From Eledone cirrhosa (Eukaryota), in the NCBI GenBank assembly GCA_964016885.1, contig OZ024749.1:7254001-7318000 (forward strand): a stretch of DNA of 64,000 nucleotides. The letters are read 5' to 3'. The translations under genes were made by a program, and so were the position numbers. Under the pieces are notes generated by a model, which saw nothing but the letters and a program-made list of their open reading frames with translations, was not told the origin of the DNA and made no database searches. Positions within the stretch are counted from its first letter, which is position 1. Each line of letters starts with the position of its first letter. Shown here piece by piece: positions 1,637 through 49,639 of this stretch.

Positions 1637-1750
1637 CGAGTAGGACCCCGACGGCTGAGCTCAAGCCGTTTCGACGGCTAATTCTGGACTAAGTATTGAG
1701 TACTTTGGTGCGTTATGGTCCACTTGGTTCCTTACCACATTTCCTTCGTT
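1637..1750. mobile_element. PLE pLTR-like cassette family P: inverted hammerhead 3' half fused to the tail
   Basis: gagtaggaccccgacggctgagctcaagccgtttcgacggc joined at ctaa to tattgagtac...ttccttcgtt, then (AT)n. Confidence 0.7.
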
Positions 1751-2445
1751 ATATATATATATATATATATATATATGTATATATTCTTGACCACACGTGA
1801 CCCGTTGGGTCACGTACACTTAAACATAAGTTTTAAATAATTAAAATATACACAGACATGTATATAATGGGAAATGAAACTGAAAGGCCCATATATATAC
1901 GTGTGTGTGTGTATATATATATATATATAAATGTTTGTGTGCATACATATATATATATATGTGTATGTGTGTGAATATATATATGTGGGTGCCTGTGATC
2001 TATATACACTGGTCATACACACACACACACGCACACACACATACACATACACATACACACACATACACACTCATATATATGCACACCCACTCACATATAT
2101 TTATACACAGCAACACAACCAGCTCTCTCTCTCTCTCTCTCTCTCTCTCTCTCTCTCTCTCTCTCTCTCTCTCTCTCTCTCTCTCTCTCTCTATGTCTCT
2201 CTTTCAATCTCATCTCTCACAACCACTATCTCCTTCTCTCTCTCTCTGTTTATGAAGGTACCGGGAAAAATCCCATATCTCGGAAACCCGTGCTCTGATT
2301 TACGCGAAACTTGTTTTATTCCATTTGTATCCCCATTTCAGTGACAACTTCCTTTCAAAGTATTTTCCCATTATGCGCCCTTTTGGCTGTATTACATTAC
2401 AGACAAGCAAGCGATTATAGAGTTTCATTAGTATAGAGATATACA

Positions 2446-2728
2446 CAGTTGTCCCTCGGTATTCGCGGGGGCTACGTTCCGAGAACACCCGCAAAGAGTG
2501 AAAAACCGCAAATATTGAACGTAGTTCATAAAAATGCCTATAAACGTCAAAACATAAGGTAAAATATAGGCCGGCAAATACGGTATATTGTTATTAATAA
2601 TTTAGCGTTAAAAGCCATGAAAATATATATTGCTACAAAAGAAGCCATAAAAAATCGCGGCAGACATTTACGATTCCACGAACCATAATTAGGTTCTAAG
2701 GAAAATTGCGAATACCGGGGGTACACAG
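2446..2728. mobile_element. pogo/Tigger-like MITE
   Basis: Imperfect TIRs cagttgtccctcggtattcgc / gcgaataccgggggtacacag, followed by TA. Confidence 0.55.
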
Positions 2729-2740
2729 TATATATATATG

Positions 2741-2925
2741 CAAAGAGTCAGGACCCCGGCCGTTTCGACAGCTAGACCCGAACAGTTCGGATCTAGCTCT
2801 CGAAACGGCCGGAGCTCAGCCGTCGGGGTCCTGACTCTTTTCATACTACCCACTCTACTACTCTAAGTATTGTGTACTCTGGTGCATTATGGTCCAACTG
2901 GTATCTTACCACACTTTCTTTGTTT
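2741..2925 (+). mobile_element. Family P cassette (divergent), fold-back
   Basis: aaagagtcaggacccc...gtttcgacagctagacccgaac a gttcggatctagctctcgaaacggcc...ggggtcctgactcttt, then the family tail and (TA)n. Confidence 0.7.
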
Positions 2926-3749
2926 TATATATATATATATATATATATATATATATATATATATATATATATACGTATTTATATAACGAAGAGGGTGTGG
3001 TAAGATACCACACACACATACACACACATACACACACATATATATATATATATATAATAGTAGTAGTAATAATAATAATAATATTAACTGAAGTAGTTAA
3101 ACTCCTTTACAGGTTGATTAAAAGCTCAAGGGGGTCACGCAGAGCTATATTTTTCCGTGTTTTGAAGATCTGTTTGACAATCGCCACCAACGAATACGAG
3201 ACAGTTCTGCAGGATAGTTAACCAAGAATCTTTAAAAATCTCCCCGCTCAAGTTAACTAGGAACTAACTAGATCTACAAAACCAAATTGTAAAATCTTAA
3301 TATTATAAAATAAAATTAAGTTGTATAGTACTTCAAGTGAAATAATTCTTTTCCTTTATATAATATATATATATATTATATATATATATATATTGCCAAT
3401 AAGAAACACACGCGTGTGTGTTTCTTATTGGCAACATGACCCTCCCAAAGTATAACAATATATATATATATATATATATATATATATATATAGTTAAAAG
3501 AATAGAGGTGTAACACACAAGTTATTATATATTGGTAAACGGAATAGAAAATGCTGACAAATTGTTCACAGTTGAAAAATGGCTTAAATAGGAATAAAAG
3601 AGTATTAGTGATTGTATGGGTTAGTATTCAGTTGTGGTTTTAAGTTTTTAAGTTTTTAAGTTTTTACCGGTTGCGCATTTCTAAATGCTTTTCAAAAATA
3701 ATTTTGAGATAGAGTGTCCGTGCTGTTTGCTCTGATCTGATATATATAT

Positions 3750-3898
3750 ATTGTTATACTTTGGGAGGGTCATGTTGCCAATAACAAACACACACGCGTG
3801 TGTTTCTTATTGGCAACATGACCCTCCGAAAGTATAACAATATCGGTTTCAACACACGTTTTCAGATAAAGAATCTTACTAAACAAATTCAGAAACGA
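3750..3898. repeat. (TA)n-embedded cassette family Q with ~93 bp palindrome (other copies 3392-3460, 36585-36686, 51480-51545)
   Basis: tattgttatactttgggagggtcatgttgccaata...tattggcaacatgaccctccgaaagtataacaata. Confidence 0.7.
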
Positions 3899-45852: not shown

Positions 45853-47164
45853 CATATTATTATTATTATTACAGACTCTTTTGTAAGACGGTCATTTTTC
45901 CATTCCATCCAATAGAACTCTGCTCTGTGATTAGGAATCAGACTTTGGTAAATAGTAATTAACACAAATGATATTGGCACTACTTCTATTTACCTCATCA
46001 TCTGCTCTACCTACAGAGACTTGGTGTAATGAGATGTCTACTATATATATATATATATATATATATATATATATATATATATATACTTGTATATATATAT
46101 AGATACTTGTATATATATATATATAAATATATATATATATACATACTTGTATTTATATATATATATACATACTTGTATATATATATATATATATATATAT
46201 ATATATATATATATATACAGATATATATATATATATGTATACATACATATATATACATATACACATATGTACATATGCATACATATATACATACATATAT
46301 TCACATTTTATGTACACACACACACACACACACACACACACACACACACACACACATATATATATATATATATATATATATATTATACTCCAAACAATTT
46401 GTAGAGTGCTTCGAATCTGTTATATATAAATTTGTTGAATAACCAACAAATTAAATATCTCTTTGCTTATATATATATGTGTGTGTGTGTACGTGTGTAC
46501 ATATATGTATGCATATATATATTATTTATACATATATATATTATTTATACATATATATATATGTACACACGATATATATATATGAGTGTGTACATACACA
46601 CACATATATATATATATACTTATTTATATATATATATATATATAAATAAGTATATATATGTGTGTGTGTATGTGTACACACTCATATATATATATCGTGT
46701 GTACATATATATATATATGTGTATATATATATGTATATATATATATGTATATATATATATACATATATATATACACACACATATATATACATAAATGTGT
46801 CTGTTACTCACTCATCGTCTCTATCCCCCCCCCCCACACCATTCACTTTACTTCTATAATTAATTAAATCCTCATACTTTCCTTCTTTCTCCTCCTTTGG
46901 GCTAAATCTCAGCTATTCACGAAGAACAGTATCACGCACACACACACATACACACAGACACACACACATGTATATATACATACACACACACACACACACA
47001 CACGTGTGTATATATATATATATATATACATACAAACACACATACATACATGCATACACACATGTATACAGACATTCACACAGAAACACACATACATACA
47101 CAGTGACTTGTTCGTCATTGTCATTGAGTAGGACCTAACTATAAATATTGTTCAACACAATGCA

Positions 47165-47945
47165 TCTTCACCACCACCACCACCACCATTAATACTACTA
47201 CTAACACCACCACCACAACCACAACCACCATTAATACTACTACTAACACCACCAAAACCACAACCACCATTAATACTACTACCACTACTACCACCACCAC
47301 AACCACTCCAACATTAACAACCCACCACAACCACCATTAATACTGCTATAACTACTACCACAACCTCAACCACTCCAACACTAACACCCCACCACAACCA
47401 CCATTAATACTGCTACAACTACTACCACAACCACAACCACTCCAACACTAACACCCCACCACAACCACCATTAATACTGCTACAACTACTACCACAACCA
47501 CAACCACTCCAACACTAACAACCCACCACAACCACCATTAATACTGCTACAACTACTACCACAACCACAACCACTCCAACACTAACAACCCACCACAACC
47601 ACCATTAATACTGCTACAACTACTACCACAACCACAACCACTCCAACACTAACAACCCACCACAACCACCATTAATACTGCTACAACTACTACCACAACC
47701 ACAACCACTCCAACACTAACAACCCACCACAACCACCATTAATACTGCTACAACTACTACCACAACCACAACCACTCCAACACTAACAACCCACCACAAC
47801 CACCATTAATACTAATACCACTACTACCACCATCACAACCACTCCAACACTAACACCCCACCACAACCACCATTAATACTGCTACAACTACTACCACAAC
47901 CACAACCACTCCAACACTAACACCCCACCACCACCACCACCACAA
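47165..47945. repeat. ~67 bp minisatellite
   Basis: accaccattaatactgctacaactactaccac at 47464, 47531, 47598 and onward. Confidence 0.9.
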
Positions 47946-48080
47946 TTAATTATATCTCCCCCAACAACCACTTCTATCGCCACTACCACCACCACCACCA
48001 CCACCACCACCACTCCAACAATAACACGCCACCACACATCTATCACCACCAACACCACCAACACCACTCCAACAATAACA

Positions 48081-48397
48081 GTGGGGCTGACCACTGGATG
48101 AGTAATTGTGTTGAGTGGGGGTCACCACTCGATGAGTGGTTGTGTTGAGTGGGGATGACCACTCGATGAGTGGCTGTGCAGAGTGGGGGTGACCACTGGA
48201 TGAGTGATTGTGTTGAGTGGGGGTGACCACTGGATGAGTGGTTGTGTTGAGTGGGGATGACCACTCGATGAGTGGCTGTGCAGAGTGGGGGTGACCACTG
48301 GATGAGTGATTGTGTTGAGTGAGGGTGACCACTGGATGAGTGGTTGTGTTGAGTGGGGATGACCACTCGATGAGTGGCTGTGCTGAGTGGGGGTGAC
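48081..48397. repeat. 34-35 bp minisatellite (~9 copies, 3-unit higher order)
   Basis: Unit gagtggggrtgaccactsgatgagtgrytgtgyw. Confidence 0.9.
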
Positions 48398-49488
48398 GTT
48401 GGATATTAATCGTGAACATATCTCTTCAGAAATCCTTTCAATTGTGAAGAGTTGCTCCCTTCTGGGCCTTCTTTAGGCGTCTCGGGATACGCAACCATTG
48501 AGCATTGATCCAACTCCGCCTAGATATGTCACCCACCCATCACCAGTTCTCACAGCGTGGGGTGGAGACTACAATAAATTCTTTCTAGCAGGCCCCAGTA
48601 TCGAAGCCCTGATCAAGTCCCATGTTACACCACACCACATGAGGGACGATGTGGTAGGATTGCTTTCATCGCATCTGATCATACTGCAGTTTTGGCTTAT
48701 TGGTCTTATTCCTGCAAAATCATTTCTCTTGATGATAAATACACACCACCACCACAACAACGTCACCGCCACCAACACATCTCCACCACCACCATCACCG
48801 CCACCGACGTCACAGTCACCGACGTCACCACCACCACCACCAGCGCCACTGACGTCACCACCACCACCGACGTCACCGCCACCACTACGCCACCACCACC
48901 GACACTGTTACTGTCATTTAACGTCCGTTTTCCCTGCTAAGAAAGGACAAACGTGCCACAGCAGAAATATCAGTATTTAATCAGCTCTTGGGACCTTTCA
49001 GGGGATACGGGTATCTGAATCTCACGCATATACCTTTCTATACTTTACCAAATATACTGGCTGTGTTTTATCGGGCACCTGCACGGGGGTAGCTGCCATT
49101 GTCAGGTCCGTGACAAAACTGAATGGCCCTCACGATCTTTTGTTTTACTAAACAAATAACTCGTAGTGGAATCTCTAGATTAGCACAAGGCGTGATAGAT
49201 ATAGCTATTATATATTCATAAAATCCCACATATACTGTGAAGGCATCGTTTAAACTGCACGGCAAGGCCCTACTTATAAAATAACATATCCATAGAAGCG
49301 AGGTTCGTAACTGACAAATTGAACACTATGCACAACTTTATCTTCAAATACCAAAACCAATTTCACTACAAATAGGCCATCCTTAAGATAGCGTGTTAGC
49401 GCTTACACACACACACACACACACACACACACACACACACACACACACACACACACACACACACACACACACACACACATATATATAT

Positions 49489-49639
49489 AGTCCAGACTTA
49501 GTCCAGAATTAGCCGTCGAAACGGCTTGAGCTCAGCCGTCGGGGTCCTACTCGTTCATATTACCCACTCTACTACCCTAAGTATTGAGTACTTTGGTGCG
49601 TTATGGCCCACCTGGTTCCTTACCACATTTCCTTCGTTA
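49489..49639 (+). mobile_element. Family P cassette
   Basis: ttagtccagaattagccgtcgaaacggcttgagctcagccgtcgggg...ttccttcgtt(AT)n. Confidence 0.8.

What the first reader, a model, noticed from the sequence alone, without database searches (positions are those of the whole stretch)
1637..49639. Family P: fixed 3' end at (TA)n, repeatedly folded back inside hammerhead stem II
Seen: about 10 copies; several end exactly at ttccttcgtt|(AT)n (1750, 6410, 31224, 49638 on +; 7527, 24914, 40061 on -). They carry GTC-GAAAC-GGCT tgagctc AGCC-GTC-GGGGTC (hammerhead 3' half) but no CUGAUGA. At 2785, 7663, 25050, 31005 and 40197 the sequence turns around just upstream of the stem II 3' strand, each time with a different spacer. 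Inference: target-primed cDNA synthesis stalls or snaps back at the ribozyme hairpin, so the ribozyme fixes the inversion point.
Basis: partly seen in the sequence, partly recalled or inferred. Interest (0 to 1): 0.75.

Follow-up and report, generated by a model that had tools for sequence, protein, structure and literature searches.

The report
Penelope palindromes mark RNA start site
These short back-to-back repeats, over eleven thousand in this animal genome, are pieces of a Penelope-type jumping gene inserted in TA repeats, and they likely turn around where they do because two copying reactions ran off the front end of the gene's RNA, not because they stalled at its predicted self-cutting hairpin.

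Summary
In detail: 10 insertions in the window and 11,605 exact short palindromes genome-wide. They are end fragments of a 3.1-kb Hydra-clade Penelope-like element (PLE) with an intact RT + GIY-YIG ORF found elsewhere in the genome. The full element has a complete hammerhead fold with a U3-A8 core (UUGANAA), so CUGAUGA is never present. Each insertion is two arms with fixed outer ends 78 nt apart (+61, +139), each on (TA)n: the known PLE 'inverted copy plus tail'; the scan noted two-armed insertions before in this genome. Both arms stop at one cliff (-5..+8) in hammerhead loop II. Stalling or snap-back at the hairpin is not supported: no arm holds the 5' stem strand, long arms pair with long arms (11 of 14), and another hammerhead family folds elsewhere. 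The cliff sits on an initiator-like TYAGTY kept while the loop diverged, and a non-genomic G often precedes +1 (5,679 G vs 919 A). Best reading: cDNAs primed near the RNA's 5' end run off a probably capped transcription start inside the ribozyme and are end-joined. No RNA data tested this.

The parts
1637..1692 (-). Inverted arm, element +55 to about -2, outer end on (TA)n
1691..1750 (+). Main arm truncated at +80, fixed end +139 on (AT)n
2740..2783 (-). Sister subfamily P2, inverted arm to +2 with an internal deletion
2784..2924 (+). P2 main arm +1 to +139
2985..3009 (-). P2 tail remnant (separate, heavily truncated arm)
   Evidence: seen in sequence
6269..6325 (-). Inverted arm +61 to +4 (subfamily with AAATAG variant)
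6330..6410 (+). Main arm +59 to +139
7528..7663 (-). Main arm +139 to +4
7663..7719 (+). Inverted arm +2 to +61, outer end ttcctat on (AT)n; the pair forms a predicted DNA hairpin of -75 kcal/mol
21774..21828 (-). P2 lone short arm, +61 to about +5
24915..25048 (-). Main arm +139 to +6, 100% identical to the ORF-bearing copy L161
25054..25109 (+). Inverted arm +6 to +61
30676..30755 (-). P2 inverted arm reading past the cliff to -29
30747..30912 (+). P2 main arm also reading past the cliff, to -33 (a long-long pair)
30945..31007 (-). Inverted arm +61 to about -2/-4
31006..31224 (+). Main arm from about -4 to +139 with an internal slippage repeat and a re-copied +40..+77 stretch
40062..40193 (-). 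Main arm +139 to +8
40194..40252 (+). Inverted arm: a non-genomic G at 40194, then +1 (40195) to about +58
49489..49638 (+). Main arm +1 (49500) to +139, preceded by a direct duplicate of +1..+8 (49489-49496); no inverted partner

Best explanation
These are end fragments of a Hydra-clade Penelope-like retrotransposon, each made of two arms joined head to head in (TA)n, and they likely arise when the element's enzyme primes both cut DNA strands at two fixed RNA sites near the RNA's 5' end, so that both cDNAs would run off that end, which is probably a capped transcription start lying inside hammerhead loop II. Shown: parent element with ORF; fixed outer ends at +61 and +139; common cliff at about +1; excess non-genomic G before +1; long arms pairing with long arms; hammerhead fold with U3-A8 core. 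Inferred: (1) two primings, one per strand (by analogy with the Anolis Poseidon enzyme); (2) the RNA is terminally redundant, so priming on its 3' copy gives kb-long arms and priming on its 5' copy gives 61- and 139-nt run-off cDNAs; (3) the two cDNA ends are trimmed, extended and end-joined, which explains the different spacers; (4) +1 is a Pol II start and the G is the copied cap; (5) a start inside loop II would leave the mRNA front with only half a ribozyme, so it could not cut off its own cap in the ordinary fold.
For: Parent: L161 tandem, unit 3,118 bp, ATG at +232, 719-codon ORF with YRDD, DKT, CxCx5C and GIY-YIG-type motifs. Two fixed outer ends: 55 of 60 adjacent inverted arms end at +58..+64; loose read ends at +61 and +139 followed by (AT)n in two raw-read runs and in a second species' contigs. 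Cliff: main-arm loss 0.45% per nt over +118..+9, 11.6% per nt over +8..-5, and 8 of 90 pass -20; inverted arms 42 of 45 end in +8..-5. Concordance: of 22 insertions hit by the first 30 read-through matches, 14 could be resolved by eye: 11 long-long, 2 long plus early-truncated, 1 long plus cliff; about 11 cliff partners expected if arms stalled independently. Extra G: 5,679 arms with G before +1 vs 919 with A; control before +4: 16 G, 54 A, 30 C in the first 100 of 2,144; 0 of 73 read-through copies have G there; 0 of 30 G arms inspected read through, and about 19 of 30 are not explained by the partner arm. Where both arms reach +1 with two bases between, the base before +1 is G in 33 of 98 arms, T 31, A 22, C 12. 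Arms joined straight to TATATA: 28 G, 50 C, 6 A against a background of 422 G, 3,916 C, 1,490 A. TYAGTY/TTATTC kept in P and P2 although the rest of loop II diverged. Penelope and Chlamys-3 have their start site in the pLTR (PMC2377424 passages; PMC8557442 section 10); an extra G marks full-length L1 insertions (PMC11702581 passages).
Against: No RNA evidence was obtained for transcription, a start at +1 or a cap. +1 was chosen after seeing the motif and the cliff spans about 13 nt; only 9 of 145 arms score exactly +1, and shared junction bases blur the ends. C is also in excess before +1 (15 C vs 6 G among junction arms in the 90-copy sample; 50 C vs 6 A at TATATA joins). About 11 of 30 G arms can be read as partner-derived. 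An RT can add C at any template end without a cap (recalled). Some arms run 1-5 nt past +1. Mixed pairs exist (L063/L131, L130, borderline L200), and 8 of 22 long insertions were unresolved. The initiator consensus is recalled and short (0.3-0.9% of sites by chance).
Confidence: 0.62

Rival explanations
1. The RNA does end at about +1, but through a nuclease cut in loop II of the ribozyme hairpin (or other processing), not through transcription start; the extra G is an untemplated C added by the RT. The ribozyme structure would then fix the fold point indirectly.
For: Fits the cliff, the long-long concordance and the absence of upstream sequence equally well. The site is 3' of an AU-rich apical hairpin in the predicted fold. 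C as well as G is enriched before +1.
Against: The motif is kept while loop II changes from AU-rich (P) to GC-richer (P2). G is the commonest base in the cleanest class (33 of 98). A second family has its cliff 5' of the core. Known PLE start sites lie in the pLTR.
Confidence: 0.17
2. One reading: one cDNA stalls at, or snaps back on, the hammerhead stem II hairpin and copies itself or the RNA back, so the ribozyme fixes the inversion point.
For: The cliff does lie between the strands of a covarying stem II. The arms of one insertion are nearly identical (29 of 35 the same at 10 diagnostic bases, the other 6 differ by one base).
Against: 0 of 39 short pairs keep loop or 5'-strand words inside the fold. 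The stop is after the 3' strand has been copied, when the hairpin is already open (inference). The inverted arm has a fixed start on (TA)n, shared with kb-long copies. Long arms pair with long arms, 11 of 14. 10 of 55 pairs have a full short arm joined to an early-truncated main arm. It does not explain the extra G.
Confidence: 0.08
3. The short copies come from separate short master RNAs (a SINE-like non-autonomous family beginning at +1) rather than from the front of the full-length mRNA.
For: Short copies outnumber read-through arms about 5 to 1 (28,020 3' motifs vs 4,953 read-through arms). A lone +1..+139 arm would carry an internal promoter.
Against: Junction spacers are nearly all different, so palindromes are not re-copied as units. 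Short copies carry the same diagnostic bases as long subfamilies, one being 100% identical to L161. The Anolis enzyme needs RNA 3' of the start sites (PMC11167929), which short copies lack.
Confidence: 0.08
4. The palindromes are DNA-level products: long inverted insertions that later collapsed, or assembly chimeras.
For: Perfect hairpins are unstable in DNA (general knowledge); the raw-read check across folds is thin because the library enzyme cuts AATT at +8.
Against: Collapse would not give one sharp centre with an added G. Reads from two 2026 runs cover the fold of L094 away from their ends (102 and 34 reads at place 834) and share a head-to-head joint (54 and 78 reads, one start each); contigs of another run bridge it.
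Confidence: 0.05

Closest known systems
Hydra-clade EN+ Penelope-like elements (Craig et al. 2021, PMC8557442; passages and section 10 read)
   Same: Single ORF with RT then GIY-YIG; DKT; CxCx5C linker; CxxC and CxH near the C-terminus; (TA)n targets; hammerhead in the pLTR; inverted 5'-truncated copy and one-sided tail.
   Different: RWR for RWK; unit 3.1 kb; tail 78 nt rather than 30-40; hammerhead non-canonical (U3-A8, about 33-nt loop II insert); inverted copies are not randomly truncated but mostly stop at one point.
Poseidon PAc of Anolis (Frangieh et al. 2024, PMC11167929; parts 1-2 of 4 read)
   Same: Two internal RT start sites bounding the tail, downstream of the hammerhead; both target strands cut and extended; AT-rich target; uncleaved RNA is the template.
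   Different: In vitro, another clade; found no difference in start site between strands and did not describe head-to-head joining or a 5' run-off point. Here nearly every pair uses one site per strand.
Drosophila virilis Penelope internal promoter (Schostak et al. 2008, PMC2377424; passages read)
   Same: Start site inside the pLTR, TATA-less Inr/DPE-type promoter; inverted terminal copies.
   Different: Start mapped experimentally, with an intron; no intron tested here, and the start here is inferred and lies inside the ribozyme.
L1 twin priming and cap-derived extra G (PMC11702581; passages read)
   Same: Two primings on one RNA, end-joined cDNAs, extra G at complete 5' ends.
   Different: L1 arms copy adjacent, barely overlapping RNA stretches from a poly(A) tail; here both arms copy the same stretch to the same end and there is no poly(A).
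U3-A8 hammerheads of Schistosoma Cercyon PLEs (Cervera and de la Pena 2014, PMC4209133; passages read)
   Same: U3-A8 in place of C3-G8 in a pLTR hammerhead; palindromic loop III (GAGCTC).
   Different: Those are minimal motifs; this one has a 5-6 bp stem III and a long stem II.

Membership tests
EN+ Penelope-like element | Single ORF with RT and C-terminal GIY-YIG endonuclease | tested here: met
   L161 ORF 3380-5536, YRDD at 347, VIYQ..YIG at 590 of P0002; motif reading by eye. Pfam gave no hit; 2,215 unnamed relatives at E<=1e-50 among 7,998 scored
EN+ Penelope-like element | Partial tandems forming pLTRs | tested here: met
   L161 (3,118 bp period) and L162
EN+ Penelope-like element | Inverted 5'-truncated copy and tail at one end only | tested here: met
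   55 of 90 with adjacent inverted arm ending at +58..+64, main arm at +139
Hydra clade | DKT, CxCx5C, CxxC and CxH motifs | tested here: met
   against the description in PMC8557442
Hydra clade | RWK motif | tested here: inconclusive
   RLRWR, conservative change
Hydra clade | Insertion into (TA)n | tested here: met
   81 of 90 followed by ATAT
Hydra clade | RT phylogeny groups with named Hydra elements | not tested
   no named reference proteins were in hand
Type I hammerhead ribozyme | Three stems around the core with base-pair support | tested here: met
   MFE fold has this topology though z-score 0.01; 91% of cells paired, 4 stem II pairs with two-sided change, essentially one P/P2 split; stems I and III show none
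Type I hammerhead ribozyme | Canonical CUGANGA core | tested here: not met
   0 of 73 read-through copies; 52 of 73 UUGANAA (U3-A8), 10 CUGAGAA (C3-A8 mismatch)
Type I hammerhead ribozyme | Self-cleavage after GUC | not testable with these tools
   needs in vitro transcription; copies span the site without a breakpoint peak there
Non-LTR retrozyme | Tandem non-coding monomers each with a complete hammerhead | tested here: not met
   short copies lack the 5' half; the tandem unit seen is the 3.1-kb coding element (definition from 10.64898/2026.07.22.740005, part 1 of 5)
Pol II initiator promoter | YYANWYY/TCAKTY-like motif at the RNA 5' end (consensus recalled) | tested here: inconclusive
   motif present and conserved at the cliff (the search pattern partly constrained +1..+5); RNA 5' end not observed
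Pol II initiator promoter | Capped transcripts start there | not testable with these tools
   indirect only: excess G before +1

The most novel reading that the evidence does not exclude
Thousands of palindromes are fossil run-off ('strong-stop'-like) cDNAs that map a PLE's capped transcription start to the base. The element places that start inside its own hammerhead, so the ribozyme is split at the mRNA front and whole only at the back; the long stem II could also let the two RNA ends pair into a circularly permuted hammerhead (predicted by cofolding) that regulates the RNA or helps the RT jump between ends. Each insertion is made by a paired enzyme using one fixed start site per DNA strand.
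Probability: 0.3. Interest if true: 0.75.

Novelty: new variant of a known kind. Interest (0 to 1): 0.52.

Why it matters
How PLEs make inverted copies and what their hammerheads do are stated as open in PMC8557442. This family gives exact, testable coordinates: one RT start per strand, a predicted RNA 5' end with a cap trace, and a promoter inside the ribozyme. An intact ORF copy exists for an in vitro system. It also explains more than 11,000 near-perfect 50-60 bp hairpins in this genome that could be mistaken for DNA-transposon MITEs or small RNA genes, and suggests that PLE start sites can be read from genomes alone.

Tried and rejected
Rfam scan of the window: no hammerhead among the best 150 of 468 listed matches, swamped by microsatellite hits. 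The repeat finder was swamped by (TA)n. CTGANGA upstream of the 3' half: only 69 matches, with no shared upstream sequence, read as junction mosaics. Pfam found nothing for the ORF. Sequencing runs: no RNA holder listed. The apparent read-end peak at L161:3156 is +8, the first base of AATT, and the other listed ends lie at AATT too: judged a restriction-site artefact and not used. First alignment of P with P2 had two rows in the wrong orientation; redone. The window map, first-copy positions and my note are 2 nt off; one search is correct (+1 = L161:3149, window 49500). The 0-of-13 pairing test is superseded by 1 of 14 after one search showed L131/L063 is a mixed pair. Looked for a G at -1 or subfamily recombination at +1 in long copies as a sign of strand transfer: none seen in 58-73 copies. 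Cross-family test of fold points is weak: only the second hammerhead family had a read-through reference (one insertion). The organism was not identified; 'octopus' and 'cephalopod' in two paper searches were guesses and gave nothing on this family. Literature searches found no paper reporting a run-off or cap signature in PLE inversions; the library is partial, and the supplements of PMC8557442 (Hydra families and hammerheads) were not opened and may list this family.
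Full report
Observation. The window lies in a 3.0-Gb animal genome. The 3'-end motif has 28,020 exact matches and the short palindrome 11,605, controls 0. I number the element from the A of TTAGTCC as +1 (L161:3149, window 49500).

Parent element. Some copies continue upstream. A pattern for that upstream part gave 4,953 arms. Fetching 20 long loci chosen from that list revealed a tandem with a 3,118-bp unit and an open 719-codon ORF starting at +232. It has an RT core, DKT, a CxCx5C linker, a GIY-YIG-type domain, CxxC and CxH, which match the description of the Hydra clade of Penelope-like elements in PMC8557442 (passages); no tree was built. 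Family P is the pLTR end of this element.

Ribozyme. The long copies hold the missing 5' half. The fold has type I hammerhead topology but is no more stable than shuffles. On 16 hand-picked copies (9 P, 7 P2), 91% of cells pair and four stem II pairs change on both sides, mostly reflecting the single P/P2 split. The core is UUGANAA in 52 of 73 read-through copies, CUGAGAA in 10, CUGANGA in none. U3-A8 is a described PLE variant (PMC4209133 passages). Activity is untested. Copies cross the cleavage site without a breakpoint peak.

Two fixed outer ends. I took the first 90 of the 100 listed 3'-motif matches on contig C1. Sixty have an adjacent inverted arm and 55 of those end at +58..+64, on (AT)n. 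Kilobase-long inverted insertions show the same pair of ends, +139 on one side and +61 on the other. Raw reads of two 2026 runs and contigs of a second species show loose (AT)n ends at both places. This is the known 'inverted copy plus tail' (PMC8557442), and the Anolis enzyme starts at two sites bounding the tail and extends both target strands (PMC11167929 parts 1-2). I infer two primings, one per strand.

The cliff. Main arms are lost at 0.45% per nt from +118 to +9, then 44 of 55 end within +8..-5; 8 of 90 pass -20. Of inverted arms reaching +8, 42 of 45 end there (long inverted arms were outside that parser's reach and were checked).

Against stalling or snap-back. None of 39 short pairs keeps loop or 5'-strand words in the fold. 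Among 22 insertions hit by the first 30 read-through matches, 14 were resolved by eye: 11 long-long, 2 long with an early-truncated partner, 1 long with a cliff partner; independent stalling predicts about 11 cliff partners. The window's 30676-30912 insertion is itself a pair in which both arms pass the cliff. Mixed pairs do occur (L063/L131, L130, borderline L200). In a second hammerhead family, 16 of 18 listed arms stop within a few bases 5' of CTGATGA, and the 2 that read on belong to one insertion. Arms of one insertion are near-identical (29 of 35), which fits one RNA but does not separate the models.

For an RNA end. A G that no read-through copy has (0 of 73) precedes +1 in 5,679 arms, against 919 with A; before +4 the first 100 of 2,144 matches give 16 G and 54 A. 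About 11 of 30 inspected G arms could owe the G to the partner. In the class where both arms reach +1 with two bases between, G leads with 33 of 98 (T 31, A 22, C 12; 27 of 51 insertions carry one). At direct joins to TATATA, G is 28 of 84 against a non-T background of 7%. C is also raised; short re-copying of the terminal bases, as at 49489, may explain part of that. An extra G marks capped full-length L1 insertions (PMC11702581 passages). The site matches a recalled initiator consensus and is kept between P and P2 while the rest of loop II diverges. Penelope and Chlamys-3 start inside their pLTR.

Model. The mRNA likely starts at +1 of the upstream pLTR and runs through the downstream pLTR, so it holds the two RT start sites twice. 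Priming on the 3' copy gives long arms; priming on the 5' copy gives 61- and 139-nt cDNAs that run off the end and are end-joined with variable trimming and additions. My odds: two-site priming about 0.85, an RNA end at +1 about 0.8, a capped start about 0.6. A start inside loop II would keep the front of the mRNA from folding a normal ribozyme; cofolding predicts that the front half can still pair with the upstream half in trans, which is speculation.

Independent data. Reads across a fold were found but are few, because the library enzyme appears to cut AATT at +8; the read-end peak there was rejected as an artefact. No test of expression was possible.

Verdict. The gross structure is a known PLE footprint, so this is a new variant of a known kind. 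The added value is a base-level cliff with a probable cap trace inside the ribozyme, which eight literature searches and two look-ups in the scan's notes did not find reported; unopened supplements may bear on this.

Noticed in passing
window 33202-35457 (-), 35698-35704 (-), 35876-35882 (+): Frameshifted remnant of a related PLE ORF (33-45% identity to P0002) with canonical CTGATGA motifs upstream on both strands; a smaller piece at 36802-37095.
   Followed up: partly
window 11994-12087 (-): U6 snRNA match, 65.2 bits against gathering score 44, with a 13-nt gap; probably a pseudogene next to a long microsatellite.
   Followed up: no
window 38422-38863: 442-bp 100% palindrome with a CTGAAGA motif in each arm, about 120 nt from the centre; both arms begin GACTCCAG.
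   Followed up: partly
window 43644-43764; L158, L007, L009, L037, L242, L261: Second hammerhead family (CTGATGA core) making the same kind of short palindromes, folded just 5' of the core.
   Followed up: partly
window 15538-15603, 24696-24788, 3393-3839, 10501-10916, 18166-18211, 49654-52288: Further palindromic or inverted repeat families in or next to (TA)n; the 49654-52288 cluster has three CTGATGA motifs.
   Followed up: no
L063 / L131 (G000:C1 about 492,000-493,070): Mixed insertion: main arm from +1, a 110-nt direct piece of the 3' UTR, then a long inverted arm whose outer end is near -3; suggests template switching at the junction.
   Followed up: partly
L149, L167, L132, L158 and others: One subfamily has a C3-A8 mismatch in the core (10 of 73 copies) yet spread widely, suggesting that cleavage is not needed for mobility.
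   Followed up: partly
window 31068-31125: Fourfold slippage repeat of a 10-11 nt unit just inside the +61 site, followed by a restart at +40.
   Followed up: no
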